A DNA stretch of 38,913 bases from an uncultured Bacilli bacterium (GCA_947585915.1 CANPXJ010000002.1:1-38913), one strand, 5' to 3'. Counted from the first letter of the stretch, positions 4,903-38,641 are shown. Numbers and translations: made by a program. Notes: generated by a model from the letters alone, not told the origin.

Positions 4903-4930
4903 AAGACGCATTATTTCGATGATGCGTCTT
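4903..4930. terminator. Shared hairpin between the convergent agrBD and regulator/kinase operons
   Basis: AAGACGCAT (4903-4911), a 10-nt loop, then ATGCGTCTT (4922-4930), followed by T-rich sequence on the plus strand. The hairpin also encodes the last codons of the kinase on the minus strand. Confidence 0.6.
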
Positions 4931-6907: not shown

Positions 6908-6932
6908 ACTACCAACTGCCTTAACGATTTAA

Positions 6933-6959
6933 ATTATATCACAATTTTTCTAATAGCAA
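6933..6959 (-). promoter_or_regulatory. Candidate extended -10 promoter of the regulator/kinase operon
   Basis: On the minus strand, TGaTATAAT (plus 6933-6941). The best -35, TTGCTA, is only 15 nt upstream, which is suboptimal spacing. Confidence 0.4.
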
Positions 6960-6975
6960 AATAAAAACAATAGAT

Positions 6976-20787: not shown

Positions 20788-20846
20788 AAACAAAACCTCC
20801 CTTTGTTTTTTTTTAGTTATTATAATTTAGCTTTTTTGTTAATGAT

Positions 20847-22121
20847 TTAATTTTTCCCTTCACATCTTCTTTTTATTCTCTTCATTTCCTCATCTTCTTT
20901 TTGGTTTTGAATGATAATATCTATACCATCTATTATCTCTTGCGTATAGGCTCGGTCTAGACTTGTTATGTTATTTCCTTTTTCATCACTCATACGATAA
21001 CCATTATATAAAATATCAATTTGTAGTTTTCCTAAATTAGAAACATCAACAAAATATACTCCACAATGTAATTCTTTCAATTTATCATATAGCTCATCTG
21101 CAACGTGTGGTAGAGATTCATAAAAATGCTTTTTATTCATTTTAGTTTTTCTAAATTTTGGATTCAATTCAGATACTATTTCTATCATTGTATTTAATTC
21201 ATGAGCATTGGTTAAAATTTTCTTTGCTCCTAAATATAATCTACAATATTTTAATAATTCTTTTTCTTTACTTTTTAAATTATTTAAACTAACTTTTTTT
21301 TCAGTTAACTCTGATAATAAATCTTTATTTATTGGATCACTTAATTTTTGTTCAATATCCTCATCCATTGGCACTCTTATAGTCATGCCATTAATATCTA
21401 TTATTTTATCAAAATTAGATAAGTCTATTTTAAGTAAGCCTTCATTTATATTATCTTTATTATCAGTAATAAATAATATATTATCACTATCAATATCTAT
21501 TATTTTACGATTTGTGTTTTTATAATCCGTAATAAATGCATCAGTTGGTGCTTTCTTCGGATCAAAACTTTCTGTTCTATATACTTTACCACAACTTTCT
21601 AAGTCAAGAAAAATAACATGATAAACAACTTTACCATCCTTATTGAAAAACATAATTGAATCATTATGTCTTTCTTTTAAATTAACCTTATATGTATATT
21701 CAAAATCCGATGTATCATAATAGTCTATTTCTTTGTCATAATCCCAATAATTTGGAGGTTGAGAGCAATAACACTTAAAGTATTCAGCAAATAAATTATC
21801 GTTTTCATCAAAAATTAAAACTTTATTATCTTCATAAAATCCTGGTATATATTCTTTTGGTTTAATAACACCTGATCCACTTACTTTTATTTTAAAATTT
21901 CCTTTAGAGGTCTTTACTCTATATTCCACATTTGCTAGTTTTATCAAACTTCTCATTATATTCATATTAGCTTCTTTATTTTTTATCTCTTTTCTTATAT
22001 TACTTTTGATATTAAAATCTTTTTCTTCAGTTTCTAAAGAAGTTTCCATATTTTTTGCCTTTAAATTTAATATTTTTTTTATTATTCCAAGATTTTGCAA
22101 TTTTTTTATTTCATTCTTCAT
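20847..22121 (-). CDS. Orphan paralog 2 of 3 (long form with a duplicated or inserted N-terminal segment)
   Basis: GGAGG-ttttgttt-ATG at 22121. In the track start at 22136, the ATG overlaps the RBS. It contains KEIKNKEANMNIMRSL, NAHELNTMIEIVSELNPKF and the C-terminal module LKELHCGVYFVDVSNLGKLQIDILYNGYRMSDEKGN. Confidence 0.8.
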   Translation of the reverse strand: MKNEIKKLQNLGIIKKILNLKAKNMETSLETEEKDFNIKSNIRKEIKNKEANMNIMRSLIKLANVEYRVKTSKGNFKIKVSGSGVIKPKEYIPGFYEDNKVLIFDENDNLFAEYFKCYCSQPPNYWDYDKEIDYYDTSDFEYTYKVNLKERHNDSIMFFNKDGKVVYHVIFLDLESCGKVYRTESFDPKKAPTDAFITDYKNTNRKIIDIDSDNILFITDNKDNINEGLLKIDLSNFDKIIDINGMTIRVPMDEDIEQKLSDPINKDLLSELTEKKVSLNNLKSKEKELLKYCRLYLGAKKILTNAHELNTMIEIVSELNPKFRKTKMNKKHFYESLPHVADELYDKLKELHCGVYFVDVSNLGKLQIDILYNGYRMSDEKGNNITSLDRAYTQEIIDGIDIIIQNQKEDEEMKRIKRRCEGKN

Positions 22122-22155
22122 AAACAAAACCTCCATTATTTCAACTTAGTAATTA

Positions 22156-23328
22156 TTATAGTTTAGCTAATCTTCTTGTTAATGATTTAATTTCTTCTTC
22201 CATATCTTCTTTTGTTTGTGAGCGAAGTATTTCCTCTACCCCTTTTAGTATCCAAGCTCTCCATATAGGATTATGAATTTTCTTACAAACATTTCCATCT
22301 TCTGTACTAATTCTATATCCGTCTGGAAAAATATCAATTTGTAGTATTCTAAAACTATCTATATTAACAAAATATATACCACATTTTAATTCTTGTAATT
22401 TTTCATCAAGTTCTTTTGCTACAATTGTTTCCTTCTTATCACATATCTCTTTTTTTGGTAATTTCTTAAACTCAGGATTTAAACCTATTGCTATTTTTGT
22501 CATTAGATCTAAATTATGTGTATAATTTAAAGCCTCCATTGCTTTTGCATATAATTTAGATAATTCAGTTAATTTTTTTTCTTCTTTCTTTATCCCACTA
22601 TAGTCTAAATCAGAAATATATAAAGATTCACAGACTTTAAATTTCGACGAATCCTTGTCTATAACTTTATTTAAATATTCATTTTTTTCAATTTGACTAT
22701 TTATTTCTTGATTTATTTTATCTAAATAGCTATTAAATTGTTCAACTCCTTGCTTATATTTATTTATTTCTTCAATAATATCTTTGTCTTTTGATATTCT
22801 TATTTCCTTCTCATTAATTTTTATTATTCGATCAAAATTGTTTAAATCTATTGAAAGGTATTCTGTATCATCCTTTAAATCATTAGTAATTATGTTATTA
22901 TCAACATAAATTCCTTGGGTTGCACCTTCTTCGTTAGGAAAGAAAATATCTGTTTCATCTATAGTATAAAATATTGTATGTTCTTTATTGGTATAAATAT
23001 AGACTTTTGCTTCCTTACAATCTATATCATACCCATAATTTAAGTTAAGTTCAGGAGAATGATCTGCCTCTCTTTCTAACAAGTCCCCCTCTGTATTACT
23101 ATTATAATAGTGATTGTAATAGTATTGACTAAATGGAGCACCTTGTTCATCCGTAATTAAAATATTTTTATATTCATCATACGCACCACAAACAATATTA
23201 CAAGTTCCTGATTTTTCTATTTTAAATTTACCTTCGAGAGTATTTACACTATATTCCCCATCTTTTAGTTCTGATATCATTCTCATCAAGCGCATGTTTG
23301 CATCTTTGTTTTTTATTTCATTCTTCAT
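22156..23328 (-). CDS. Orphan paralog 3 of 3 (long form)
   Basis: GGAGG-ttttgttt-ATG at 23328. MKNEIKNKDANMRLMRMISELKDGEYSVNTLEGKFKIEK, and the C-terminal module LQELKCGIYFVNIDSFRILQIDIFPDGYRISTEDGN. Confidence 0.8.
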   Translation of the reverse strand: MKNEIKNKDANMRLMRMISELKDGEYSVNTLEGKFKIEKSGTCNIVCGAYDEYKNILITDEQGAPFSQYYYNHYYNSNTEGDLLEREADHSPELNLNYGYDIDCKEAKVYIYTNKEHTIFYTIDETDIFFPNEEGATQGIYVDNNIITNDLKDDTEYLSIDLNNFDRIIKINEKEIRISKDKDIIEEINKYKQGVEQFNSYLDKINQEINSQIEKNEYLNKVIDKDSSKFKVCESLYISDLDYSGIKKEEKKLTELSKLYAKAMEALNYTHNLDLMTKIAIGLNPEFKKLPKKEICDKKETIVAKELDEKLQELKCGIYFVNIDSFRILQIDIFPDGYRISTEDGNVCKKIHNPIWRAWILKGVEEILRSQTKEDMEEEIKSLTRRLAKL

Positions 23329-23354
23329 AAACAAAACCTCCTCATTTCATTTTA

Positions 23355-27294: not shown

Positions 27295-27319
27295 GAAAAA
27301 ACACCTCCTTGACAGAGGT

Positions 27320-27348
27320 ATTATAGCATGTTGAAGACTTTATCCACA
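27320..27348 (-). promoter_or_regulatory. mnmE promoter (TGcTATAAT) with a perfect DnaA box over the -35 position
   Basis: On the minus strand, TGcTATAAT (-10 at plus 27320-27325). TTATCCACA on the plus strand at 27340-27348 overlaps where the -35 should be. Confidence 0.5.
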
Positions 27349-27471
27349 ACCTAAATTACGAAAATATTTTAAGATATTATTACAAAATTTTTAAGTGATT
27401 TATAATAAATACTTTTTTTACTTTTTACATAATATATTTTATTTTGATAATATTTATCATTTAATTTATTA

Positions 27472-28086
27472 TTAAAAAAATAAATATATTATTGATGGTA
27501 TTATCAATAAGAGTAATAGAATAATAATAGTTCTTAATACTATTTTCTTCTGAATATTCGAAAAAAATTTATGTTTTTTTATAGTAAAAATAATTTGATA
27601 AATTAATATTATTGGATATATTGGAATAATTGACCCAACTAAAAGAACTATTAATATTGCTTCAAATCCATAATAAATTGTAGTATCATCAAAAAAACTA
27701 ATCTCTATTCCAAATATACTAAAATATATTAGTAATAAATAGGGAAGTAAACTTATCATGTATAAAACAAATAGTTTATCATTTTTCTTGATTTTCGGAG
27801 GAACTTTTAATTCCTTATCTTTTTTCTTACTTGGTTTATCTAATAAATAATAAATAGGATATACTATACAAAAAATTATTAAAAATATATAAAATATATT
27901 CAAATCTATAATAATTTCAAACCAAAAATTGGCGAGAGGTTCAACCAAACAGTATAAATCCAAATGCCCGGTTTCAACAATATCTTGACACAAATTAAAA
28001 ATTCCCATAACTAATAATATTAAATATGGAAGTATTGATAAAAATAATAAAATTTTTTTTATCTTGAATTTAATAGTGTTATCCAT
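27472..28086 (-). CDS. Polytopic membrane protein of unknown function (204 aa)
   Basis: About six hydrophobic helices, with a Lys-rich loop KPSKKKDKELKVPPKIKKNDK in the middle. AGAGGTAA precedes the ATG. Confidence 0.7.
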   Translation of the reverse strand: MDNTIKFKIKKILLFLSILPYLILLVMGIFNLCQDIVETGHLDLYCLVEPLANFWFEIIIDLNIFYIFLIIFCIVYPIYYLLDKPSKKKDKELKVPPKIKKNDKLFVLYMISLLPYLLLIYFSIFGIEISFFDDTTIYYGFEAILIVLLVGSIIPIYPIILIYQIIFTIKKHKFFSNIQKKIVLRTIIILLLLLIIPSIIYLFF

Positions 28087-28164
28087 AATTTACCTCTAAC
28101 AAATATATTGTACCATTATTTTATATCTAATAAAAGAATTTTAATAATTACTAATTGATAGTTT

Positions 28165-29424
28165 TTAATTTTTTAAAGTTCCTATCGAAACTACATAAAC
28201 TCCATCATCACGCTTGTAAGAGTAATTAGCTCCAGTTAACACCATTAAGAATAATGGTTCTCCACATTTTTTAGTATCCACTCTTTTTTTAAATTTTAAA
28301 AGATTCTTCGCAGCTTCATCAATATATCCAGCTCCGAGTTTTATTTCAATAGCTCCCCATTTTCCACTACTTGTCCTAAATATGGCATCTACCTCAAAAT
28401 CTTTTTCATCACGATAAAAGGTTAAATCTCCATTGTAACTTTGCGTATATATCTTTAAATCTCGCATACATAGTGACTCAAACATAAAACCAAATGTATT
28501 TAAATCATTAATTAAATCATTAGGTTTAATATCTAGAATTGCTGTAGCAATAGAAGGATCAACAAAATATAACTTAGGTTTTGTTCTAAGAGCATACTTA
28601 CTTCTAAAATTTAAGTTAGTTGCATTAACATTTTCAATTACAAATAATTTAGCTAAAGTATTTAAGTAATCGTTTATTGTTGGTCGAGAGATATTATCAT
28701 TAAATTTGTTTTGCACATCATTTTCTAATGTAGAATTAGATACTTGAGTAGAAATATTTCTTGCTAAACTTCTTAAAATGTTTTGCATTTTTTCGGGATT
28801 TCTTTCTATTCCATCAATTTTTTTTACTTCTTCATGTAATAAAGATTTTACATATTCTTTAGCAAATCTATATTTTGCCTCACTTTTTACCTCTAAAGAA
28901 GCAGGCCATCCACCTCTTACAATAATACTGGCTATATCTTCTAATGATAATTTGGAGACCCCTGATATATCTTTTCCTTCCAATATATTTTTAAATGAAA
29001 CTTCTCCAGTAGATTCGTTTGATTCATACAAACTCATAGGACGCATTAAAACTCTTGAAATTCGGCCCGTTCCAGTGTGCATTGTTTCACCTTCGCTTGG
29101 TTTAGCTGAACCAGTAAGGATATATTGTCCTTTTAATCTGGAATGATCAATATCTGTTCTAATTGAATCCCAAACTACTGGGTACATTTGCCATTCATCA
29201 AACATTCTAGGTTTTTCTCCTGTTAAAAATAAAGAAGGTTTAGTATTTTTAATTTCATCATATTCTTGCTTTTTATCAGGATTTTGAAATTCAATAACAC
29301 TTTTTGAATGATGCAAACCTGTTGTTGATTTCCCACACCATTTGCACCCTTCTATTAAGACTGCTCCCATTATTTCCATAAGTTCATCTATTTCGAAATC
29401 CACAACTCTTGGTAAATATTTCAT
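28165..29424 (-). CDS. AAA+ ATPase of the AAA_14 + DUF4143 type, with a PD-(D/E)xK-like C-terminus
   Basis: P-loop-like GCKWCGKST near the N-terminus. C-terminal FEVDAIF...WGAIEIKLG matches a D...E-x-K nuclease-fold signature. 419 aa, with GGAGGGG as RBS. Confidence 0.7.
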   Translation of the reverse strand: MKYLPRVVDFEIDELMEIMGAVLIEGCKWCGKSTTGLHHSKSVIEFQNPDKKQEYDEIKNTKPSLFLTGEKPRMFDEWQMYPVVWDSIRTDIDHSRLKGQYILTGSAKPSEGETMHTGTGRISRVLMRPMSLYESNESTGEVSFKNILEGKDISGVSKLSLEDIASIIVRGGWPASLEVKSEAKYRFAKEYVKSLLHEEVKKIDGIERNPEKMQNILRSLARNISTQVSNSTLENDVQNKFNDNISRPTINDYLNTLAKLFVIENVNATNLNFRSKYALRTKPKLYFVDPSIATAILDIKPNDLINDLNTFGFMFESLCMRDLKIYTQSYNGDLTFYRDEKDFEVDAIFRTSSGKWGAIEIKLGAGYIDEAAKNLLKFKKRVDTKKCGEPLFLMVLTGANYSYKRDDGVYVVSIGTLKN

Positions 29425-29456
29425 TTATTACCCCTCCTCGTAAAAAGATTATATCA

Positions 29457-29512
29457 TTATTTTACAAAAAGAGCAATTTTTATTTTACATTTTGAGAAAA
29501 AATTATTTTACA
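29457..29512. repeat. Three direct copies of TTATTTTACA with an exact 23-bp period in the ATPase upstream region
   Basis: Copies at 29457-29466, 29480-29489 and 29503-29512. On the minus strand each reads TGTAAAATAA and contains a -10-like TAAAAT. Confidence 0.6.
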
Positions 29513-29531
29513 AAAAAAGACAAAATTTAAA

Positions 29532-29555
29532 GAAAAAAAATCCGATTATTCGGAT
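29532..29555 (-). terminator. Rho-independent terminator after jag
   Basis: On the minus strand, ATCCGA-ataa-TCGGAT is followed by 8 T. It begins 6 nt after the jag stop. Confidence 0.7.
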
Positions 29556-29561
29556 ATATTT

Positions 29562-30170
29562 TTATTCTGCCTTTTTAATTACAACATGACGATTAGGTTC
29601 TTCACCTTCACTAATTGTTGTAACTCCTTTAAAATCAGTTAAAGCATTATGAACAATTCTTCTTTCATAGGAATTCATATTTTCTAAACTTGCATCAATT
29701 CCTGTTGCTCTTACTTCTTTAGCTGTTCTACGTGCCAGTCTTTCAAGATTTTCATTTTTCTTATCTTTATAATTTTCAACATCTAAAATAATGTATGGTA
29801 AAATTTTCGTTTCTTTAATTATTATCTGGCGCACTATTAATTGTAAAGCACTTAAAGTTTGACCATTTTTACCAATTAAAATTGCGTTATTATCAGAAAA
29901 CATTTTTATATATATTTGTTTATCTCTAATTCTACTTTCAAAAGTAACATCTAGACCCATTCTTCTAAGTAAATCGCTTAAAAAGTCTTTTACATATTCA
30001 CATATATCTTCTAACTTAACTACAGTAACAACATTTGTTGTTCCTTTAAATATTCCCCCTTTTTTAGTAAAAGATTTATACACTATATCTTCTTCTTTTA
30101 ATTCATTTTCTTTTAAAATTTCTTCTAAAACTTTTTCATAATCTTTTCCACTTTGTTCATAAATTTTCAT
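29562..30170 (-). CDS. jag: Jag/KhpB RNA-binding protein (Jag_N, KH, R3H)
   Basis: 202 aa. KH-like IGKNGQTLSALQ and R3H segment NMNSYERRIVHNAL. It lies downstream of yidC. Confidence 0.88.
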   Translation of the reverse strand: MKIYEQSGKDYEKVLEEILKENELKEEDIVYKSFTKKGGIFKGTTNVVTVVKLEDICEYVKDFLSDLLRRMGLDVTFESRIRDKQIYIKMFSDNNAILIGKNGQTLSALQLIVRQIIIKETKILPYIILDVENYKDKKNENLERLARRTAKEVRATGIDASLENMNSYERRIVHNALTDFKGVTTISEGEEPNRHVVIKKAE

Positions 30171-30187
30171 AACTAACTACCTTCTTA

Positions 30188-31150
30188 CTATTTTTTTGAT
30201 TTTATTTTTTTCATATATAAGTTCTGTAATACCATTATACCATTAGTTACAATCCAATACAAAGCAATTGCAACTGGTAATGTTATAGAAATGACTGAAA
30301 TCATTATCATCATAAATTTGGACATCATTTGCATTTGTTTTTCGGCTTCTCCTCCACCAGAGGCGGCCATGTTCATTTTAAACGATAAGTAAGTAGTTAA
30401 CATTATTAATAAAATTATTACAATATAAACTATTTTAACTCCCATTGAACCAGTTGTAATACCTATTAGAGAGTTTGTTCCTAAATTGACCCCAAATAAG
30501 TGTTCTTCAAAAATAGCTGGTACTCTATTAATTGCTTCCAAGAAAGCAAAGAATAAAGGTAATTGAATAAATGATACTAAACATCCAGAAACAGGATTTA
30601 TATTATATTTTTTATAAACCATCATTGTTTCTTGACTCTTAGCCATCATTGATTCATTATCAGTTTTATTTTTATATTTTTTTTCAATTCGATTAATTTC
30701 TGGTTGGGCTTTTTTCATATTTTCACTCGTTGTTAAACTTTTTTTAGAAAGTGGTAATAATACTAACCTTATTAAAGCTCCAACCACCATAACAGCTATA
30801 CCAAAATTCTTAACAATTAATCCTACTTTGATAATTACCCAAGCAAGTGGCTTGACAAAGATACTTTCCCACAAACCGTGATATTCGATTTTGCCAGGTG
30901 TAAATTTAGGACAAGCAGGTAAATTTTTTAATTTTGTTTGCATTTGTTTTTCATACTTATCATAAATACTAATCAATTTTTTATCAGTTGGCTTACATAA
31001 AATATCATTACGAACAGACTGACCTGTTTCTTTGTTTTGAACTAATTTCTTATCTCCATCTTTAATATAATCTGCCGACCCACAACTAGTACAAGTAAGG
31101 AGCATTAGAATTAATACTAATATTGATAACTTTTTTTTCAATTTATTCAC
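30188..31150 (-). CDS. yidC: Membrane protein insertase YidC/SpoIIIJ
   Basis: 320 aa with a signal or lipoprotein-like N-terminus and multi-pass C-terminal core. 4-nt overlap with rnpA. Confidence 0.92.
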   Translation of the reverse strand: MNKLKKKLSILVLILMLLTCTSCGSADYIKDGDKKLVQNKETGQSVRNDILCKPTDKKLISIYDKYEKQMQTKLKNLPACPKFTPGKIEYHGLWESIFVKPLAWVIIKVGLIVKNFGIAVMVVGALIRLVLLPLSKKSLTTSENMKKAQPEINRIEKKYKNKTDNESMMAKSQETMMVYKKYNINPVSGCLVSFIQLPLFFAFLEAINRVPAIFEEHLFGVNLGTNSLIGITTGSMGVKIVYIVIILLIMLTTYLSFKMNMAASGGGEAEKQMQMMSKFMMIMISVISITLPVAIALYWIVTNGIMVLQNLYMKKIKSKK

Positions 31151-31470
31151 CTTTTCTTTAGTACATTTTTCATCTCATTTAATAGTTTATCATATTTTTC
31201 ATCTTTACAGAACCTTTTTGCAACAATTATATAATCATTATATGTTGGAAAACTTTTCATATTATAATCTATTATATTTCTAATTTTTCTTTTTACTTTA
31301 TTCCTTATGACAGCATTTCCTACTTTTTTCCCCACTGCTATTCCAAATTTTGGTTTTTCAAAAGTTGATCTTAAACAATAAATTATAAAATTTTTAGAAT
31401 TAATTTTTATTCCTTCTTTAATTACTTTATTAAAATACCTATTATCTTTTACAATATCTTTTTTTTTCAT
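31147..31470 (-). CDS. rnpA: Ribonuclease P protein component
   Basis: FGIAVGKKVGNAVIRNKVKRKIR (RNR-type motif), 107 aa, downstream of rpmH. Confidence 0.92.
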   Translation of the reverse strand: MKKKDIVKDNRYFNKVIKEGIKINSKNFIIYCLRSTFEKPKFGIAVGKKVGNAVIRNKVKRKIRNIIDYNMKSFPTYNDYIIVAKRFCKDEKYDKLLNEMKNVLKKR

Positions 31471-31514
31471 ATATTTAGTCCTTTTTAGAAGAAAAAACCA
31501 TAATACTTTATGGT

Positions 31515-31637
31515 TTATTTAGATAATACTTTTCTTCCTTTTTTTCTTCTTCTTTTTAATATGTTCGTTTCTTTTCTAGCAAAAAATCCATGTTTCTTTG
31601 CTTTTTTACGATTATTTGGTTGATATGTTCTTTTCAT
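31515..31637 (-). CDS. rpmH: 50S ribosomal protein L34 (not in the ORF track)
   Basis: Hand translation gives [40 protein letters not shown] (40 aa). GGAGGTG lies upstream of the ATG at 31637. Confidence 0.9.
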
Positions 31638-31671
31638 AAATGCACCTCCAAACCTTTTGTTAAGTCAATTT

Positions 31672-31701
31672 ATTATATTATAAAGTTTCAATAAAAGTCA
31701 A
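31672..31701 (-). promoter_or_regulatory. Candidate sigma-A promoter of rpmH-rnpA-yidC-jag
   Basis: On the minus strand, TTGACT (plus 31696-31701), an 18-nt spacer, then TATAAT (plus 31672-31677). Confidence 0.5.
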
Positions 31702-31727
31702 GAAATGAATATAAATTTTTTTTTAGT

Positions 31728-32471
31728 TTATTTATCAGATGGTGATAAAGAAAGAATTTTATTATTTATTTCGTTAAAACATCTTACATCTTCTTCATCC
31801 ATATATTCATCAAGCTGACATATCCAGAATATGTGATAACTTTTAATCACTACATTTCTATGTGCTAATATATCTGATCCTTTGACTTTTTCTGCAAAAT
31901 AATAATTATATTCTGGATCTTTACTTTTTAAAATCACTTGTCCATGTGCTTTAATATTCGCTCCTATCACGAATTGAGCAAATTCATAATTCAACTGTAG
32001 ATTTTTGCTATCTAAAACTATTTGTTCATGTGATTTGATATCCGCTCCTTCAACATCACGAGCATAGTAGTAATTCAATTCTGGGTCTTTACTATCTAAA
32101 ATTATTTGACCATGTGCTTTTACATTAGCACCTTTTACATCACGAGCAAAGTAATAACTTACTTTAGGATTATTACTTTCTAAAACAATTTGTTCGTGGG
32201 CCTTGATATCCGCTCCTTCAACATCACGAGCATAGTAGTAATTCAATTCTGGGTCTTTACTATCTAAAACTACTTGAGCGTGTGCTTTTATATCTGCCCC
32301 TTTAATGTTTTTTGCAAACCAAGTACTTAATTCTGGATTTTTTACTTTTAAAATATTTTTTTCAAATAATTCTATTACAACACTATTTCCCCAGCCTTCT
32401 TGAACAAATTTTATCTTAGATATTATTTCATCAATTTTATTCTTTTCAATTTCACTTTTACTTTCATTCAT
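31728..32471 (-). CDS. Tandem-repeat protein: six 28-residue repeats (predicted helical solenoid), function unknown
   Basis: The repeats fit P-E-x-x-Y-Y-(F/Y)-A-x-x-V-x-G-A-(D/N)-(I/V)-K-A-H-x-Q-(I/V)-(V/I)-L-x-S-K-x, for example DSKDPELNYYYARDVEGADIKAHEQIVL. The track start at 32516 is a TTG. The ATG at 32471 (MNESKSE) has GGAAAGGAA upstream. Confidence 0.8.
   Translation of the reverse strand: MNESKSEIEKNKIDEIISKIKFVQEGWGNSVVIELFEKNILKVKNPELSTWFAKNIKGADIKAHAQVVLDSKDPELNYYYARDVEGADIKAHEQIVLESNNPKVSYYFARDVKGANVKAHGQIILDSKDPELNYYYARDVEGADIKSHEQIVLDSKNLQLNYEFAQFVIGANIKAHGQVILKSKDPEYNYYFAEKVKGSDILAHRNVVIKSYHIFWICQLDEYMDEEDVRCFNEINNKILSLSPSDK
32035..32269. repeat. 67-bp perfect direct repeat (32035-32101 and 32203-32269), 168-bp period, inside the repeat-protein gene
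   Basis: Both copies read ttgatatccgctccttcaacatcacgagcatagtagtaattcaattctgggtctttactatctaaaa. They correspond to protein repeats 2 and 4. Confidence 0.9.
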
Positions 32472-32540
32472 GTTAATTTCCTTTCCCAAACTTAATTTAA
32501 TATTAATAGTATTCAAAAATATTTATTAAATAAAATTTTC

Positions 32541-33635
32541 TTAATTACGATTAAGTTTTCTTTCTATTCTTAATCTTTTTATTTCTTCTTTTTTAAAATT
32601 TTCATCTTCAGCATGATTTTTTAAAACATTTACAAGATTTTGCATTGCTTCTTGTTTCTTATTTTTATCAATATCATAAATATCTTTAATAGTAACTTTT
32701 TCTACTTTTTCATATTTTTTTGTTCTATCAAAGTAATTTTCATAACATACTAAATTAGGATTTCCTCCCAATTCTAAATACTTAGCAATAAAATCATCTA
32801 AATTTGGATCAGAGGTATCTATTCCATATATCATTGGTATATCTATATTTCTATTAAATTCCTGGGCAAATAATAAACCGCGACGAGGTCCTATTCTATT
32901 TCCTCCCCTTTCAATAATACGATACATTACACAATTTAATAATTCTTCTTTAAAATAACAATCTTGTTTATAATTGTTTATGGCATTTAATAATTCTTCT
33001 CTTGTATCACTAGCTATTTTAATAGAATTACTATCTAAAAAATTTAAAAATTCTTCCGCCTTTACATCATTTAATTTTACGATTTTTCCATTATTATCCT
33101 TAATTTCAATTATAGGTGAATTTTTAAAGGAAGAATAAAGGGTACTTACTCTAAGTCGTCCTTTAGCTGTTAGATAATAATAATAATTATTATTATTCAA
33201 TATTTTGAGCCTATGACAACATAAACTTTGACATCTAGGTTTTGCTAAAAAATGATATTCATAATTAGGTAAAGTATTAGTAAAAGCATTCAAATTATAT
33301 AAATCTGCCCAATCTAATAATTGAATATCTGAATCCTCATCAATTTGAGATTTTAAATATATATTTTCTTTAAACATTTTTCTATTGATATTTTCTTTAT
33401 CATTATAAGGAAAACGAAGCTCATACCAAACGGCCATTTTTTCAATAAAATTTCTTAACTCTATGGGTTCTCTATACTCTCCTATATCAGTATATTGTCC
33501 TTTTACCATGTTTTCATAATACCAATTAATAAATTCATCTACTTTATCATCTAGAACAATTGGTTTTTCATTTTCTTCCTTTTCTAAAAAACTATTTAAT
33601 TTTTCTTTTAACATTTCTAAATATTTCTTTTTCAT
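32541..33635 (-). CDS. Hypothetical protein (364 aa)
   Basis: AAGGAG lies 5 nt upstream of the ATG. No motif I recognise. Conserved-looking core RIIERGGNRIGPRRGLLFAQEF. Confidence 0.75.
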   Translation of the reverse strand: MKKKYLEMLKEKLNSFLEKEENEKPIVLDDKVDEFINWYYENMVKGQYTDIGEYREPIELRNFIEKMAVWYELRFPYNDKENINRKMFKENIYLKSQIDEDSDIQLLDWADLYNLNAFTNTLPNYEYHFLAKPRCQSLCCHRLKILNNNNYYYYLTAKGRLRVSTLYSSFKNSPIIEIKDNNGKIVKLNDVKAEEFLNFLDSNSIKIASDTREELLNAINNYKQDCYFKEELLNCVMYRIIERGGNRIGPRRGLLFAQEFNRNIDIPMIYGIDTSDPNLDDFIAKYLELGGNPNLVCYENYFDRTKKYEKVEKVTIKDIYDIDKNKKQEAMQNLVNVLKNHAEDENFKKEEIKRLRIERKLNRN

Positions 33636-33750
33636 AAATACTCCTTCTTTTTGAGACTTAGTATATCATAAAAATCATTTTTTACAATATTTTTTCTTGT
33701 AGAATATTAATTAATCCATTATAATATTTTTTCAAAGGAGAAACATTAAA

Positions 33751-35211
33751 ATGGATAAAATACTTTCTTTTTCTAACTCTAATGATATTTTTAACTATAT
33801 AAAATTTATCGATTCTTACTCTGATAATGAAATAATTAATAATTTACCTCTTATGATATTTAATATGAAAAGATTATTTTTGTATTCTAAATTAGAAGAA
33901 TATATCAAAATTTCCATTAAAAATATTAAAGATATAAATTTAAAAAGTGAGCAAATAAAAAAATATTTTTATAATTTTTACAAATATGATTGGGAGAATA
34001 TATTTTCTATAATAGAAAATCACTCTTTAAAAGAAAAAGAATGTATCTTAAGAAATCTTAATAATTTAAAATTTTCTAGAGTTCAAAATATTTTAAATAT
34101 TCCTTCAAACTTAAATTTTGGATTAGAGCTAGAATATAGTAATGTTTCTCTTAAGTTTTTAAAAAAGTTATGGACAAATAATTCTATAATTGGATTAATG
34201 AATATTTTAGATATACCCAAAGATATTCAAAATTCTATTATCAAAAATACTGTTTTTGAAAAAGAAGGGGAGTTTGATAAATTTAACATTTCTATAGAAA
34301 ATGATATTGATACTGATTCAGAATTATCAACACCGATAATGAATAATTCTTTAAAAAACTTAAATGAAATAAAAGCCTTTATTCTTTTATTTAAATTTTT
34401 AAATGCCGAGCTAAACGGTTCTACATCGTTACAAATCAATATAGATGTAAAATATTTGCAAAAAAACATAAAAGCTTTAAATTATTTATTGACTATATGG
34501 GGTGAATGTGAAGAATTGTTTTTTAAAATTGCTGGTCCAGAAAATGAAGTAATAAGAAATAGTACGCTTACAATGGCTAAACCAATTAAACATAATATTC
34601 AAAATTTCTTTAATAATAATTCAAATTTTGAAATTAATGATAATGATGATATGAATTTATTTCTTTATAATGTTCAGGGGAAAGAATATTTAGAACAAAT
34701 ATTAGAATATACCCATGATTCATTACTAAATTCTATTAAAACTAAAGATGATAAAATTATTGTATTTAATAAATTTATGAAAGAAGATATTAATAATAAA
34801 AATGATATAAAGTATACAAGTATAAATTTTAATCATATGGAGTGGAATAAGAATATTGGTAGAATTGAATTTAGAATTTTTAATAATTCCTTATCCTCTG
34901 ATATAATATTTCAAGATTTAACTTTAATAGCTAAATTATGTGAAACTTGTGTACTATTAGCTAGTAATCCTTTTTATAAAAAAGAAATTTACGTTGCTTT
35001 ATTAAATCATAATATTTCTGAAGAAAATAAATTAAATTTGTTATTAGATTTATTATTTGATGATGATTATGATAAAAACGTCTTTAAAAAAAGGTGGAAT
35101 TCCGTAAAAGATTTAGAATTTTATCAATATTTTAAAGTGGGTGTTGATACATTTTGCACTTCTCCTAATAATAAACAATTAATAAAATCTTTATCCACAA
35201 CTAATTCTTAA
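33751..35211 (+). CDS. Divergent amidoligase-like protein (glutamine synthetase/GCS2-like fold, Amidoligase_2-like); tentative
   Basis: Ordered motifs: FGLELEY (G-x-E-x-E strand), ELSTPIM (E-x-x-S/T-P), GSTSLQINIDV (where H-V-H-V is expected) and GRIEFRIFNNS (T/I-E-F-R). 486 aa with AAAGGAGA as RBS. Confidence 0.4.
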   Translation: MDKILSFSNSNDIFNYIKFIDSYSDNEIINNLPLMIFNMKRLFLYSKLEEYIKISIKNIKDINLKSEQIKKYFYNFYKYDWENIFSIIENHSLKEKECILRNLNNLKFSRVQNILNIPSNLNFGLELEYSNVSLKFLKKLWTNNSIIGLMNILDIPKDIQNSIIKNTVFEKEGEFDKFNISIENDIDTDSELSTPIMNNSLKNLNEIKAFILLFKFLNAELNGSTSLQINIDVKYLQKNIKALNYLLTIWGECEELFFKIAGPENEVIRNSTLTMAKPIKHNIQNFFNNNSNFEINDNDDMNLFLYNVQGKEYLEQILEYTHDSLLNSIKTKDDKIIVFNKFMKEDINNKNDIKYTSINFNHMEWNKNIGRIEFRIFNNSLSSDIIFQDLTLIAKLCETCVLLASNPFYKKEIYVALLNHNISEENKLNLLLDLLFDDDYDKNVFKKRWNSVKDLEFYQYFKVGVDTFCTSPNNKQLIKSLSTTNS

Positions 35212-35383
35212 TTTTAATCACTAATAAATTAGGAATATTTTACTTACTAACATTTTTAACAAGTTTGTTAATAAATTTATCCATAATTGTTGATTATTTT
35301 AACTAAAATTTGTGGAAAATGTTGATAAGTTCTTTTTTTTTAGTTATTATAGTAACTAAACTTGTTGATAACATTGTGAATAA
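35191..35383. promoter_or_regulatory. oriC left part: DnaA-box cluster upstream of dnaA
   Basis: Perfect TTATCCACA at 35191-35199, inside the last codons of the upstream ORF. One-mismatch boxes at 35277-35285 (TTATCCATA), 35311-35319 (rc TTTTCCACA), 35320-35328 and 35363-35371 (rc TTATCAACA), and 35375-35383 (rc TTATTCACA). Confidence 0.8.
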
Positions 35384-35468
35384 CTTGTTATTAAAAAAAT
35401 TGGACTTTTAATTTCTAAAAACTTGTGAGAAAATGAAATTAAGTTATTAAGGTAGTGGGGTGATATGA

Positions 35469-36821
35469 TTGAATGAAGAAATTCTTTGGGATGATTTTTT
35501 AAATATTATTATTAAAAAAACTAATCCTGTTTCATTTAATACTTGGTTCAATAATATTACTTTACTAAATATTAAAGATAATAAAATAACTATTAAAGTT
35601 CCTTATGCAATGCATAAAAAAGTTTTAAGTGATAATTATTATTCTTTAATTGAAGATACTTTTATGAATTTAACTGGTATTAATTATGATATAGACTTTA
35701 TTTTAGAAGATGAAATTGAAGATACAAATAGAAATATTGTTGAAGTTGAAGAAAAAGAAGAAACTAGATGGGAATCTAATTTAATTGAAAATTATACTTT
35801 TGATAATTTTGTGGTGGGGGACACCAATCGTTTTGCTAAAACGGCAGCGGTGGCTGTAACAGAACAACCCGGAAAAATATATAATCCTTTATTTATATAT
35901 GGAAAGAGTGGTCTTGGTAAAACTCATTTAATGCATGCCATAGGCAATGAAATTATGAAAAAAACAAATAAAAAAGTTTTATATACGACTAGTGATATGT
36001 TTATGAATGATTTTACGGGACTGGCTAAAACAAATGATAATACTAACAACCTAGATTATGCGCAGAGTTTTAAAGAAAAATATCGAAATGTTGATGTTTT
36101 AATAATTGATGATATTCAATATTTAGTAGGGGCAGAGAAAACCCAACAAGAATTTTTCCACACCTTTAACTATTTACATCAAAATAATAAACAAATTATT
36201 ATTAGTTCAGATCGTTCTCCTGATGATTTAAAAAAATTAGAAGAAAGATTAAGATCACGTTTTACTTGGGGGCTTCCTGTTGATATATATCCGCCTGATT
36301 TTGATTTACGGTGTCGAATTTTAAAAAATAAAATTAAAAATCTAGATATTGCTAGCTTAATTGAAGATGATGTTATCGAATATATTGCTAATTCTTGTGA
36401 TAATGATGTTAGATATCTAGAGGGAGCTATTACAAGATTATGTGCCTATGCTGCAATGATTGTTCCTAAACAAATAAACATGGAATTTGCTACTGAAGCT
36501 TTAAAAGATTATATTAACAAGAATATCTATGATAACGGTGACATCCCTAGTATTCAAAAAGCTGTTAGTGATTATTTTCAAATAACTATTGATGAATTAA
36601 AATCAAAAAAAAGAGGGAAAAAAATTGCCTATCCGCGTATGATTGCTATGTACCTTTCTAGAATGCTAACAGATGAATCTTTTCCTAAAATAGGTTTAGA
36701 ATTTGGGGGAAGAGACCACTCAACTGTAATTCATGCCTGTGATAAAATTGAGGAAGATTTAAAAGAGAATAGTGAACTTAAAAATATTATAAAAAGTATT
36801 AAAAATAATATAACTTGTTGA
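35469..36821 (+). CDS. dnaA: Chromosomal replication initiator protein DnaA (TTG start)
   Basis: Walker A GKSGLGKTHLMHAIGN, LIIDDIQYL, and the DNA-binding domain DHSTVIHA. Confidence 0.97.
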   Translation: MNEEILWDDFLNIIIKKTNPVSFNTWFNNITLLNIKDNKITIKVPYAMHKKVLSDNYYSLIEDTFMNLTGINYDIDFILEDEIEDTNRNIVEVEEKEETRWESNLIENYTFDNFVVGDTNRFAKTAAVAVTEQPGKIYNPLFIYGKSGLGKTHLMHAIGNEIMKKTNKKVLYTTSDMFMNDFTGLAKTNDNTNNLDYAQSFKEKYRNVDVLIIDDIQYLVGAEKTQQEFFHTFNYLHQNNKQIIISSDRSPDDLKKLEERLRSRFTWGLPVDIYPPDFDLRCRILKNKIKNLDIASLIEDDVIEYIANSCDNDVRYLEGAITRLCAYAAMIVPKQINMEFATEALKDYINKNIYDNGDIPSIQKAVSDYFQITIDELKSKKRGKKIAYPRMIAMYLSRMLTDESFPKIGLEFGGRDHSTVIHACDKIEEDLKENSELKNIIKSIKNNITC

Positions 36822-36832
36822 TATCTAAATAA

Positions 36833-36913
36833 CTATCCACAATTAATAAACTCTTAAAAATATAAAAAAATAAAGAAAATAAAGGATTTTTAAATTTATC
36901 CACATTATCAACT
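36833..36913. promoter_or_regulatory. oriC right part: DnaA boxes flanking an AT-rich candidate unwinding element between dnaA and dnaN
   Basis: CTATCCACA at 36833-36841, an almost pure A/T stretch at 36842-36895, perfect TTATCCACA at 36896-36904, then TTATCAACT at 36906-36914. Confidence 0.7.
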
Positions 36914-36949
36914 CTATTATTAAAAATAATTAAGAAAGAAGGAATAAAA

Positions 36950-38071
36950 ATGAAATTTACAATCTCTAAAAATATTTTATTACAAAATTTAACTTATGTA
37001 ACTAAAGCTATATCTATTAAGAACATTATTCCTATATTAAATGGAATAAAATTTGAACTTACTGATAAAGGATTATCTTTAACAGCTAGTGATTCGGAAC
37101 TTACTATTAATACTTTTATTGAAGAAAAGGAAATAACTAAAATAGAAAAATCGGGTACTATTATTATTCAAAGCAAGTTTATTGTCGATATAATTAGAAA
37201 AATGCCAAGTGATGTTATTAACTTTGAATTAGTAGATGGTTTAAAAATAAAAATATTTACTGATAATAATGAATATTCTTTAAATTGTTTAGATCCTAAA
37301 GAATATCCTACTTTAAAATTAGAAGAAAGTAAAACTCCTCTTATAATTAAAGCATCTATATTTAAAAGTATCATAACTGAAACATCTTTTGCTATTTCTA
37401 ATCAAGAACTTCGTCCAATATTAACAGGTATTAACTTAAAAATAGTAGGGGATTTATTAGAATGCACAGCAACTGATTCATATCGTTTATCAAAGAAAAA
37501 TATTAAATTGGATAGTCCAGTTAAAGAAGATATTAATATTGTTATTCCTGGGAAAAATTTAATTGAATTTGAAAAAATGTTAAATGATGATGAGGAAAAT
37601 TTAGAGTTACATATTTTTAATTCAAAAATATTGTTCAAATATAAAAATATTTTATTTCAAAGTAATTTATTAAATGGTAGTTTTCCTAATACAACTAACT
37701 TAATTCCTACAGAATTTGAAATTATAGCTAAAACAAAATTGGCAGATTATTTTGCGGCGATTGATAGAGCATCTTTACTTACTCAAGGCAAAGATCAAAA
37801 TATTGTAAAAATGACTATTGATGATGGAAAAATGGTTGTTAATTCTTACGCTTCGGAAATTGGAAAGGTAGAAGAGAAAGTAGTTATTGAAACATCTGAT
37901 AAAGCCAAACTTGCCATATCCTTTAGTGCTAAATATATGTTAGAAGCATTAAGGACAATTAAAGATGAAGAAATTTTGATTTTACTTAATACTGATGTTA
38001 AACCGATTGTTATCAAATCCGTAAAAGATGAATCTTTAATTCACTTAATATTACCAATAAAAACATATTAA
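36950..38071 (+). CDS. dnaN: DNA polymerase III beta sliding clamp
   Basis: 373 aa. MKFTISKNILLQNL... has the typical three-domain length and lies immediately after dnaA. Confidence 0.95.
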   Translation: MKFTISKNILLQNLTYVTKAISIKNIIPILNGIKFELTDKGLSLTASDSELTINTFIEEKEITKIEKSGTIIIQSKFIVDIIRKMPSDVINFELVDGLKIKIFTDNNEYSLNCLDPKEYPTLKLEESKTPLIIKASIFKSIITETSFAISNQELRPILTGINLKIVGDLLECTATDSYRLSKKNIKLDSPVKEDINIVIPGKNLIEFEKMLNDDEENLELHIFNSKILFKYKNILFQSNLLNGSFPNTTNLIPTEFEIIAKTKLADYFAAIDRASLLTQGKDQNIVKMTIDDGKMVVNSYASEIGKVEEKVVIETSDKAKLAISFSAKYMLEALRTIKDEEILILLNTDVKPIVIKSVKDESLIHLILPIKTY

Positions 38072-38097
38072 TTAGAAGTAAAATTCTAATTTTTTTT
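38071..38097 (+). terminator. Rho-independent terminator after dnaN
   Basis: ATTAGAA (38071-38077), loop gtaaaa, TTCTAAT (38084-38090), then 7 T. Confidence 0.6.
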
Positions 38098-38179: not shown

Positions 38180-38641
38180 ATGAAAGATTATGAAATAAAT
38201 GAACAAACTTTAGCTATTATTCCATGGAAAAACAAAAGTAAAGTCTATGAAAAAGAAATCAATTTTGTGGTTGATAAAAGTGTTCATACAATTATGGAAG
38301 AAAGTTGTGAATATTTTGGAAGTTCTTTAGAAGGAAGACAAAAAGGAACTACTTCTTTGATTGGTGTAAGACATAAAACCCCAATTATTATTGAGGAAAG
38401 TAAGGAAATAATATTTTTTCCTACCTCATCACCCAGAGGAAATAATTGTTCTTGGATATCTTTAAATAATTTAGAAAATTATAAAAAAGAAAATGATAAA
38501 ATTCGTTTAAGATTTAATAATAAAAAGGAAATTAATATGGATATTTCTTATGGAATTATTGATAATCAAGTTTTAAGAGCAACTAGGTTAGAATCAATCT
38601 TAAGAAAAAGAAAAGAGGTGAATTTCAAAAGTAAATTGTAA
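38180..38641 (+). CDS. comK: Competence transcription factor ComK family
   Basis: 153 aa. TLAIIP...IMEESCEYFGSSLEGRQKGT..L.G...KTPIIIEES..IIFFPTSSPRGNNCSWISL matches my memory of the ComK core (SC..(F/Y)GSS..GR, K.PI.I, FPT.SP...C.W). Confidence 0.8.
   Translation: MKDYEINEQTLAIIPWKNKSKVYEKEINFVVDKSVHTIMEESCEYFGSSLEGRQKGTTSLIGVRHKTPIIIEESKEIIFFPTSSPRGNNCSWISLNNLENYKKENDKIRLRFNNKKEINMDISYGIIDNQVLRATRLESILRKRKEVNFKSKL

What the first reader, a model, noticed from the sequence alone, without database searches (positions are those of the whole stretch)
31728..35211. Orphan three-gene island between rpmH and dnaA, abutting the DnaA-box cluster
rpmH and dnaA are normally separated only by the left half of oriC. 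Here about 3.5 kb is inserted:
- a 6 x 28-residue repeat protein and a 364-aa unknown on the minus strand
- a divergently transcribed 486-aa amidoligase-like gene on the plus strand

The last codons of the 486-aa gene (L-S-T-T) are themselves a perfect DnaA box (TTATCCACA, 35191-35199). The gene would also be transcribed head-on to the leftward replication fork.

I could not assign any of the three to a characterised family. Their position inside the most conserved synteny block of bacterial chromosomes is unusual.
Basis: partly seen in the sequence, partly recalled or inferred. Interest (0 to 1): 0.65.

Follow-up and report, generated by a model that had tools for sequence, protein, structure and literature searches.

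The report
Variable accessory genes between rpmH and dnaA
The 3.5 kb between rpmH and dnaA is real, but it is three unrelated, dispensable accessory genes sitting in an intergenic slot that often holds different cargo in this uncultured rabbit-gut bacterial lineage, not a coherent origin-linked system.

Summary
Observation confirmed. Three intact ORFs fill window 31728-35211 between rpmH and a DnaA-box cluster upstream of dnaA. The perfect DnaA box TTATCCACA at 35191-35199 forms codons Leu-Ser-Thr near the 3' end of the 486-aa gene.

Interpretation only partly supported.
- The three genes are not a module. Their families (at least 78, 604 and 147 homologs) occur as scattered singletons. None of 58 loci with a homolog of the 364-aa gene, or the 11 other homolog loci, has a second island family or dnaA/rpmH nearby.
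- None of 80 related species has any of them within 9 kb of dnaA.
- The slot is not invariant in this clade: 16 of 68 species carry 0.75-2.8 kb of other cargo there.
- The island varies within the species. Two conspecific contigs and one metagenome contig carry a ~1.43 kb deletion of the 486-aa gene that leaves a 3' remnant. One strain has 3 repeats instead of 6, plus a premature stop.

Identities:
- The 486-aa protein is a glutamine-synthetase-like amidoligase (PF12224 family; fold closest to YbdK).
- The 364-aa protein belongs to an unannotated family (442 clusters) with no fold match, sometimes found on small mobilisable elements.
- The 262-aa protein has six unclassified 28-residue repeats.

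Ordinary accessory cargo in a permissive site; modest interest.

The parts
31515..31637 (-). rpmH (ribosomal protein L34), the left conserved anchor. Its promoter is TTGACT-18-TATAAT at 31701..31672.
   Evidence: Pfam PF00468 3e-14. Promoter scan 11/12. The sequence up to 31719 is homologous to L019/L021.
31720..35231 (.). Window-specific accessory segment (3.5 kb). The closest species have 857 bp with a different gene (L019) or about 146 bp with no gene (L021) in its place.
   Evidence: blastn blocks 29557-31719 and 35232-38072 flank it. No target-site duplication, terminal inverted repeats, integrase or tRNA was found at the edges.
31728..32516 (-). 262-aa protein with six 28-residue repeats (consensus roughly SKDPELNYYFARDVKGADIKAHEQIVLD). 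The repeat class is unassigned and the copy number varies between strains.
   Evidence: At least 147 homologs exist, some fused to NDK. L100 has 3 repeats and an in-frame stop. There is no Pfam or PDB match.
32541..33635 (-). 364-aa protein of an unannotated conserved family. Its motifs include MRNFIEKMAVWYELR and LNCVMYRIIERGGNRIGPRR.
   Evidence: At least 604 homologs at 90% clustering and 442 clusters at 50%. No Pfam, NCBIfam, PHROG, PADLOC or PDB sequence match. AF2 model pLDDT 77.7 with no Foldseek match in PDB or BFVD. dN/dS is 0.31-0.50 between conspecific strains.
33636..33750 (.). Divergent intergenic region between the 364-aa and 486-aa genes. The left breakpoint of the strain deletion lies here, at about 33672-33696.
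33751..35211 (+). 486-aa glutamine-synthetase-like amidoligase (PF12224 family). It has an N-terminal helical extension of about 110 residues and a non-conserved C-terminal tail. The gene is present or absent depending on the strain.
   Evidence: 78 homologs at 35-46% identity. 29 of 33 aligned members hit PF12224, best 2.5e-12. AF2 pLDDT 89.4. Foldseek top hit is YbdK 1r8g, E 2.7e-5, followed by GS, Dop/PafA and GCL. Invariant residues are E126, E128, E183, E191, N230, H362, R371, E373 and R375. The deletion allele is seen in L099, L100 and run X4.
35191..35199 (+). Perfect DnaA box TTATCCACA. It is the outermost box of the cluster upstream of dnaA and overlaps codons 481-483 of the amidoligase gene.
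   Evidence: It is retained in the deletion strains.
35232..35468 (.). Conserved DnaA-box and dnaA-promoter block (left part of a bipartite oriC). It aligns with the relatives.
   Evidence: Alignment A3 and blastn. Relatives have a median of 5 boxes in the 350 bp upstream of dnaA, against a background of 0.27.
35469..36821 (+). dnaA, the right conserved anchor.
   Evidence: Pfam Bac_DnaA 4.5e-64.
36822..36949 (.). AT-rich dnaA-dnaN spacer with two DnaA boxes (36833 and 36896). It is the probable right part of oriC and the probable unwinding region.
   Evidence: That unwinding starts here is inferred by analogy with Bacillus subtilis (my knowledge).

Best explanation
The segment is non-essential accessory DNA that has accumulated in a permissive intergenic slot. 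The slot lies between the rpmH promoter and the DnaA-box/dnaA-promoter block of the origin, in an uncultured rabbit-gut bacterium labelled 'Bacilli' or 'Tenericutes'.

It holds three functionally unconnected genes:
1. A stand-alone ATP-dependent carboxylate-amine ligase of the glutamine-synthetase-like fold (PF12224 family). Its most likely chemistry is ATP-dependent formation of an amide (gamma-glutamyl-type or peptide-like) bond on a small molecule or a protein. The substrate is unknown.
2. A member of a conserved but unannotated 360-420-aa family that sometimes travels on small integrative mobilisable elements.
3. A protein with a 28-residue tandem repeat, presumed to be a protein-binding scaffold.

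The essential origin elements all lie to the right of about 35190, so cargo to the left is tolerated. Related species hold other cargo in the same slot. Within this species the content is still changing: the amidoligase gene has been deleted in some strains, and the repeat array has contracted and gained a stop codon in one strain.

The DnaA box inside the amidoligase gene's last codons arises because the ORF's unconstrained tail reads into the outermost box.

What is shown: boundaries, lack of linkage, the polymorphism, and the fold and family of the amidoligase. What is inferred: the enzyme chemistry, the route of acquisition and the tolerance argument.
For: Boundaries:
- Window 31720-35231 has no counterpart in the closest species L019 and L021 (DnaA 86% and 85% identical), while both flanks align.
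- The DnaA-box block upstream of dnaA aligns with the relatives.

Variable slot:
- Of 68 related species with both genes in the locus, 52 have a gap of at most 560 bp (median 416 bp) and 16 have 750-2813 bp.
- The cargo differs between species: GlmS-like, Metallophos, HTH plus Ham1, and several unknowns.
- In those loci the cargo gene nearest dnaA ends roughly 230-600 bp before the dnaA start.

No linkage:
- tblastn of the three proteins finds only the queried family in L001-L018.
- It finds none of them in the 80 dnaA loci.
- It finds only the 364-aa family in 58 loci.
- No neighbour family occurs in more than 8 of those 58 loci.

Polymorphism:
- L099 and L100 (DnaA 99.3% identical; DNA 92-97%) lack window 33697-35128 but keep residues 453-486, which include the family-conserved KVGVDTF.
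- Run X4 holds both the deleted allele (12.6x) and contigs of the intact gene (3.6-4.6x).
- The intact-gene contigs in X4 differ from the window about as much as the flanks do.
- L100 has 3 repeats and a stop codon in the repeat gene.

Selection: dN/dS is 0.31-0.50 for the 364-aa gene and 0.013 for dnaA at similar dS.

Amidoligase.

Mobility link: a serine recombinase and/or Mob_Pre relaxase lies next to 364-aa homologs in about 8 of 58 loci.
Against: - No mobility gene, repeat signature or compositional anomaly marks the island, so the route of acquisition is unproven.
- The window's own amidoligase copy does not reach any Pfam threshold by itself. It also has Gln where most members have His in the LHINxG motif, so activity is not assured.
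- Foldseek TM-scores to YbdK are low (0.29-0.37), even though E = 2.7e-5 and probability is 1.0.
- All three ORFs are intact in the window, and the 364-aa gene is under some purifying selection. A fitness contribution, or an origin-proximal dosage benefit, is therefore not excluded.
- Only four independent contexts were examined for the amidoligase family and one for the repeat family.
Confidence: 0.72

Rival explanations
1. The three genes form one functional module. For example, the amidoligase modifies the repeat protein or the 364-aa protein, and the module was acquired and maintained as a unit next to the origin.
For: The genes are adjacent and arranged divergently, sharing a 115-bp intergenic region. 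PF12224 enzymes have been predicted to modify proteins (Iyer et al. 2009, cited in PMC11318856; I could not read the primary paper).
Against: No co-localisation was seen in any of 69 homolog loci. Conspecific strains keep the other two genes after losing the amidoligase. No conserved partner exists for the 364-aa family.
Confidence: 0.04
2. The segment, or at least the 364-aa gene and perhaps the repeat gene, is the decayed remnant of a small integrative mobilisable element. The element would have integrated beside the origin and then lost its recombinase and relaxase.
For: In L112, L110, L101 and L106 the 364-aa homolog lies directly downstream of a large serine recombinase and/or a Mob_Pre relaxase. 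Further loci (L116, L122, L141, L014) hold such mobility genes or the 83-93-aa protein at varying distances. L014 has the 83-aa protein that recurs in these elements just upstream of the homolog. Contexts are otherwise highly variable.
Against: The window has no remnant of a recombinase or relaxase (best tblastn E above 0.3) and no flanking repeats. There are no hits in plasmid, phage or viral collections. dS of the 364-aa gene matches that of dnaA between strains, so any acquisition predates the divergence of these strains. About 50 of the 58 loci show no mobility genes.
Confidence: 0.2
3. The position next to oriC is functional. The genes would be regulated by DnaA through the shared box cluster or exploit origin-proximal gene dosage, and one of them would modulate replication initiation.
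For: A perfect DnaA box overlaps the 3' end of the amidoligase gene and is retained in the deletion strains. In the deletion strains the 364-aa gene is directly divergent from dnaA across the box cluster. Some homologs lie near dnaG-sigA (6-7 of 58 loci) or thyX-tmk.
Against: No homolog of any of the three lies within 9 kb of dnaA in 80 related species. No dnaA, dnaN or rpmH lies near 58 homolog loci. Conservation of the box between strains is expected at 92-97% identity anyway. Cargo in the same slot in other species consists of unrelated metabolic genes.
Confidence: 0.05
4. The arrangement is an assembly or binning artefact: a chimeric contig joining unrelated DNA at AT-rich sequence.
For: The source is a metagenome-derived contig with about 26% G+C, where misassembly is possible.
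Against: Independent assemblies reproduce the junctions. L100 spans rpmH to the repeat gene, the 364-aa gene and the DnaA-box block. L099 spans the repeat gene, the 364-aa gene and dnaA. Contigs from runs X1 and X4 cover the junction from the 364-aa gene into the amidoligase gene (33663-34088) and from the amidoligase gene into the box region (34893-35285).
Confidence: 0.02

Closest known systems
PF12224 (Amidoligase_2) and the glutamine-synthetase-like carboxylate-amine ligases (YbdK/GCS2, GlnA, PafA/Dop, glutamate-cysteine ligase)
   Same: The 486-aa protein is 35-46% identical to proteins that hit PF12224. Its model's best structural neighbours are YbdK, glutamine synthetases, Dop/PafA and GCL. 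The family conserves an E-x-E strand, further Glu residues, an H/N motif and an R-x-E-x-R strand, which is the kind of pattern these ATP- and metal-dependent ligases use (my knowledge).
   Different: The window copy is below the Pfam threshold on its own. It has an extra N-terminal helical region of about 110 residues and large helical insertions, which fits the low TM-scores of 0.29-0.37. It has none of the partner genes reported beside phage amidoligases, such as gamma-glutamyl cyclotransferase. No relatives were found in phage, viral or plasmid collections. The substrate is unknown.
Accessory-gene islets in a variable intergenic slot between conserved core genes
   Same: The flanks are conserved and the content differs between species and between strains. 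The genes inside are unrelated to each other.
   Different: The slot is the rpmH-dnaA interval next to oriC, which is usually described as invariant. No integrase, tRNA, direct repeats or compositional shift was found, so this is not a classical genomic island.
Bipartite oriC of Bacillus subtilis type (DnaA-box clusters upstream and downstream of dnaA)
   Same: The window has 6 boxes upstream and 2 downstream of dnaA, and 75-78 relatives show the same pattern with medians of 5 and 2.
   Different: The upstream cluster is separated from rpmH by 3.5 kb of genes, and its outermost box lies inside a coding sequence. Origin function itself was not tested.
Small integrative mobilisable elements carrying a serine recombinase and a Mob_Pre (MobV-type) relaxase
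   Same: Homologs of the 364-aa gene lie directly downstream of these genes in several metagenome loci.
   Different: The window contains no recombinase, relaxase or remnant of either.

Membership tests
PF12224 Amidoligase_2 / GS-like carboxylate-amine ligase superfamily (486-aa protein) | Match to the PF12224 profile at or above its curated threshold | tested here: inconclusive
   The window protein alone shows no PF12224 hit at E <= 1. 29 of 33 aligned homologs (35-46% identical to it) match at E <= 0.01, best 2.5e-12. Membership therefore rests on transitive homology.
PF12224 Amidoligase_2 / GS-like carboxylate-amine ligase superfamily (486-aa protein) | Glutamine-synthetase-like catalytic fold | tested here: met
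   AF2 model pLDDT 89.4, pTM 0.88. Foldseek against PDB gives YbdK 1r8g at E 2.7e-5 and probability 1.0, and 1tt4 at 3.9e-4. Nearly all of the next 30 hits are GS, Dop/PafA or GCL. TM-scores are only 0.29-0.37.
PF12224 Amidoligase_2 / GS-like carboxylate-amine ligase superfamily (486-aa protein) | Conserved acidic and basic active-site residues on the central strands | tested here: met
   G124, E126, E128, E183, E191, N230, H362, G370, R371, E373 and R375 are invariant across 33 sequences including the window copy. The window has Q228 where most members have His. Mapping onto the metal and ATP ligands of GS or YbdK is inferred, not superposed.
PF12224 Amidoligase_2 / GS-like carboxylate-amine ligase superfamily (486-aa protein) | ATP-dependent amide-bond formation | not testable with these tools
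   This needs an enzyme assay.
Classical genomic island or integrated mobile element | Integrase, recombinase or transposase gene within or beside the segment | tested here: not met
   No such Pfam domain in the three proteins or their neighbours. tblastn with a serine recombinase and a Mob_Pre relaxase from homolog loci finds nothing in the window.
Classical genomic island or integrated mobile element | Flanking direct repeats or insertion next to a tRNA gene | tested here: not met
   No edge-flanking repeats. The only long-range pair (31821 and 35192, 72% over 32 nt) starts about 100 bp inside the repeat-protein gene. No tRNA search was run; the flanking sequence at both edges is accounted for by rpmH with its promoter and by the DnaA-box block.
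Classical genomic island or integrated mobile element | Base composition deviating from the host | tested here: not met
   Island genes have 20-28% G+C, against 26% for the window and 24-28% for dnaA, dnaN and yidC.
Classical genomic island or integrated mobile element | Presence or absence varies between close relatives | tested here: met
   The segment is absent from L019 and L021 and from all 80 dnaA loci. Its content is polymorphic between conspecific strains.
Conserved multi-gene functional module or operon | Member families co-localise across genomes | tested here: not met
   No locus among 69 homolog loci holds two of the three families. No recurrent neighbour exists for the 364-aa family.
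Known helical or solenoid repeat families (262-aa protein) | Match to a curated repeat profile or to a solved repeat protein | tested here: not met
   Only sub-threshold Pfam hits (DUF5873 at 20.8 bits against a cut-off of 32.6). No PDB sequence match for the protein or its family profile.
Bipartite oriC flanking dnaA | Clusters of DnaA boxes upstream and downstream of dnaA, and a GC-skew switch | tested here: met
   The window has 6 and 2 boxes, against a background of 0.27 per 350 bp in relatives. The cumulative skew minimum lies at about 34 kb. Firing was not tested.

The most novel reading that the evidence does not exclude
The 364-aa protein represents a protein family that is new to the databases: 442 clusters at 50% identity, strongly conserved motifs, no Pfam model, and no structural neighbour in PDB or BFVD. 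It may be a DNA-processing or establishment factor of small serine-recombinase/Mob_Pre mobilisable elements in uncultured gut Bacilli. In that reading, the rpmH-dnaA interval of this clade is a preferred landing or retention site for such cargo because of its position next to the origin.
Probability: 0.15. Interest if true: 0.5.

Novelty: new member of a known kind. Interest (0 to 1): 0.27.

Why it matters
The finding shows that the textbook rpmH-dnaA adjacency is not fixed in a large uncultured gut lineage. About a quarter of species, and different strains of one species, hold different cargo between the rpmH promoter and the origin's DnaA-box block. That matters for people who locate origins or anchor genome coordinates by synteny. 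It also suggests a neutral, origin-proximal site where genes could be placed in these organisms.

It flags two uncharacterised protein families that deserve a Pfam entry: the 364-aa family and the 28-residue repeat family. It also flags a chromosomal, non-phage branch of the predicted PF12224 amidoligases.

It does not reveal a new origin-linked system.

Tried and rejected
- Pfam, NCBIfam, PHROGs and PADLOC on the three proteins gave nothing significant. PDB sequence searches with single proteins and family profiles gave nothing.
- Foldseek of the 364-aa model against PDB and BFVD gave no match.
- Long members of the 364-aa family, scanned for informative fused domains, had none.
- Viral-contig scans with both family alignments found no relatives. 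The repeat-family alignment was too variable to scan.
- tblastn of the 364-aa and 486-aa proteins against the plasmid and phage collections found nothing.
- A search for RNA runs found none, so expression is untested.
- The primary amidoligase paper (PMC3268129) is not held.
- A search for island-edge repeats, integrase or mobility-gene remnants found none.
- I considered that the deletion allele is ancestral and the amidoligase gene a recent insertion. I rejected this because the deletion strains keep a 3' remnant with family-conserved residues, and because the intact-gene contigs in X4 differ from the window about as much as the flanks do.
- The GC3 values printed for minus-strand genes were computed on the wrong strand and are not used.


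Full report
**What is there**

The window's right end has the usual origin-proximal gene order of low-G+C Gram-positive bacteria: parB ... rsmG, mnmG, mnmE ... jag, yidC, rnpA and rpmH on the minus strand, then dnaA and dnaN on the plus strand.

Three intact ORFs lie between rpmH (31515-31637) and dnaA (35469-36821), exactly as described:
- 262 aa, 31728-32516, minus strand
- 364 aa, 32541-33635, minus strand
- 486 aa, 33751-35211, plus strand

The 262-aa protein contains six 28-residue repeats at residues 58-225. The DNA shows a matching 84/168-bp periodicity.

TTATCCACA at 35191-35199 is in frame as Leu-Ser-Thr, four codons before the stop of the 486-aa gene.

DnaA boxes with at most one mismatch are enriched in the window: 30 against 12.2 +/- 3.4 in shuffles. 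They cluster at 35191-35383 (six boxes) and at 36833 and 36896 (two boxes). In 75-78 related loci the medians are five boxes in the 350 bp upstream of dnaA and two in the dnaA-dnaN spacer, against a background of 0.27 per 350 bp. The cumulative GC skew turns at about 34 kb. The observation and the placement of the origin are therefore sound.

**Where it comes from, and the synteny test**

A scan of one genome per species with the window's DnaA returned 80 loci. All are from uncultured gut MAGs labelled 'Bacilli', 'Tenericutes' and the like. The closest, from rabbit, have DnaA at 86, 85, 85, 80 and 79% identity. Public runs that hold the locus are rabbit gut metagenomes.

In the 68 loci that contain both genes, the rpmH-dnaA gap has a median of 416 bp, and 52 loci have at most 560 bp. 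Sixteen loci have 750-2813 bp. Three further loci show no rpmH in the 2.1-6.8 kb of upstream sequence held.

The enlarged gaps hold different genes in different species:
- a GlmS-like gene
- a calcineurin-like phosphoesterase
- an HTH regulator plus a Ham1-family pyrophosphatase
- several unknowns

In those loci the cargo gene nearest dnaA ends roughly 230-600 bp before the dnaA start. None of the 80 loci encodes a relative of any of the three island proteins within 9 kb of dnaA.

At the DNA level, the window aligns with its two closest species over 29557-31719 and 35232-38072. The 3.5 kb in between is replaced by 857 bp carrying an unrelated 226-aa gene in L019, and by about 146 bp in L021. 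A second window-specific block, 27299-29556, lies between mnmE and jag.

**Are the three genes a unit?**

No. Each belongs to a family with many members: at least 78, 604 and 147 clusters at 90% identity.

- In ten loci with relatives of the 486-aa gene (four contexts), six with relatives of the 364-aa gene and two with relatives of the repeat gene, tblastn finds only the family that was asked for, and never dnaA or rpmH.
- A metagenome scan added 55 loci of the 364-aa family. Among 58 such loci, none has a relative of the other two genes, or dnaA, dnaN or rpmH, within up to 8 kb.
- Clustering of 461 neighbouring ORFs shows no family present in more than 8 of the 58 loci.

**Variation within the species**

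Two short contigs from other samples, L099 and L100, are conspecific with the window: DnaA is 99.3% identical and the DNA 92-97% identical.

Both contigs lack window 33697-35128, which removes the promoter and roughly the first 450-460 codons of the 486-aa gene. A short filler sequence stands in its place. Both keep the last codons, including the family-conserved K-V-G-V-D-T-F. This is therefore a deletion of a gene that was present earlier.

In run X4, a 2.5-kb contig at depth 12.6 has the same joint (33672 to 35129, with 45 letters between). Contigs covering the intact gene are present in the same run at 3.6-4.6x, and they differ from the window about as much as the flanks do. Both alleles therefore coexist in one animal's gut.

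In L100 the repeat gene has three repeats instead of six, and an in-frame stop.

Between strains the 364-aa gene has dN/dS of 0.31-0.50. dnaA has 0.013 at a similar dS (0.12 against 0.14). The 364-aa gene has therefore diverged in step with the chromosome and is only weakly constrained.

**What the genes are**

*The 486-aa protein.* It has no Pfam hit of its own. It is 35-46% identical to proteins of which 29 of 33 match PF12224 Amidoligase_2, best E 2.5e-12.
- The family alignment has an invariant G-x-E-x-E strand, further invariant Glu residues, an (H/Q)-x-N motif, H362 and a G-R-x-E-x-R strand. All of these are kept in the window copy.
- A confident model (pLDDT 89.4) finds YbdK as best structural neighbour (E 2.7e-5), followed by glutamine synthetases, Dop/PafA and glutamate-cysteine ligase.
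- The most likely mechanism is ATP-dependent amide-bond formation through an acyl-phosphate intermediate, as in that superfamily. This rests on my knowledge of the superfamily and was not tested.
- Its C-terminal tail after G-x-x-T-F varies in length and sequence across the family. That explains how the ORF can end inside the outermost DnaA box without implying a special design. The box is retained in the deletion strains, but at this level of identity that says little.

*The 364-aa protein.* It has no match in Pfam, NCBIfam, PHROGs, PADLOC or PDB sequences. Its model (pLDDT 77.7) has no structural neighbour in PDB or BFVD.
- An exhaustive profile search finds 442 clusters at 50% identity. Long members carry no known domain.
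- In about eight of 58 loci, genes of small mobilisable elements lie near the homolog. In L112, L110, L101 and L106 a large serine recombinase and/or a Mob_Pre relaxase sits directly upstream, and a recurrent 83-93-aa protein accompanies these elements.
- The window keeps no trace of such genes. Neither this protein nor the amidoligase has relatives in the viral, phage or plasmid collections.

*The repeat protein.* It matches no curated repeat family. Some relatives are fused to nucleoside diphosphate kinase, and tandem paralogs occur in L017. A role as a binding scaffold is only a guess.

**How it most likely works**

The essential origin parts are the DnaA-box and promoter block directly upstream of dnaA, and the AT-rich dnaA-dnaN spacer. 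Both lie to the right of about 35190. The stretch between that block and the rpmH promoter (TTGACT-18-TATAAT, 31701..31672) tolerates inserted DNA, and in this clade it has been filled repeatedly with different genes.

No integrase, flanking repeat or compositional shift marks the island. The route of entry is therefore unknown. Two possibilities fit the data but are not shown: recombination between conserved flanks after DNA uptake (a comK-like gene sits just after dnaN), and decay of a small mobilisable element.

The 486-aa gene does run against the leftward fork. So does dnaA if unwinding starts in the dnaA-dnaN spacer, and so does the 226-aa cargo gene in L019.

**Verdict**

The 'three-gene island' is a set of unrelated, dispensable passengers in a variable slot. 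It is a new member of a known kind (an accessory-gene islet), with modest added value: the variability of the rpmH-dnaA interval in this lineage, and two protein families that still lack any annotation.

Noticed in passing
window 27299-29556: A second window-specific insertion in the conserved origin-proximal block lies between mnmE and jag. It holds a 204-aa unknown gene (27472-28086) and an AAA_14/DUF4143 ATPase (28165-29424). The closest species L019 and L021 have only about 60 bp there.
   Followed up: partly
window 19858-23334: Three tandem paralogous genes (311, 429 and 392 aa; 30-39% identical to each other; no Pfam match) lie between parB and rsmG.
   Followed up: partly
window 38180-38641: A ComK-family gene (Pfam 2.1e-43) sits directly downstream of dnaN. 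That is an unusual neighbour for dnaN and hints at natural competence in this uncultured lineage.
   Followed up: no
window about 5000-7000: This stretch has very low G+C (16-20%), against about 26% for the whole window. It covers the ORFs at 4911-6206 and 6203-6907.
   Followed up: no
L112 3960-9110 (also L110, L101, L106): The gene order is a small 93-aa protein, a large serine recombinase, a Mob_Pre relaxase and then a homolog of the 364-aa gene. This looks like a compact integrative mobilisable element that carries the unannotated family.
   Followed up: partly
L017 6792-10315: Three tandem paralogs (237, 322 and 434 aa) of the 28-residue-repeat protein lie in one locus. Other family members are fused to nucleoside diphosphate kinase, PF00334.
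   Followed up: no
L099 1760-1800 and L100 150-190 (deletion junction): In the deletion strains, the sequence at the junction reads TTTTCCACA, a one-mismatch DnaA box. The window has TTTTATCAA at that position.
   Followed up: no
window 32541-33635 compared with alignment A2: The copies of the 364-aa protein in this species lack an 11-residue segment (consensus DYEINRLMPGS) that nearly all other family members have. They also carry a low-complexity N/Y-rich stretch in the middle domain.
   Followed up: no
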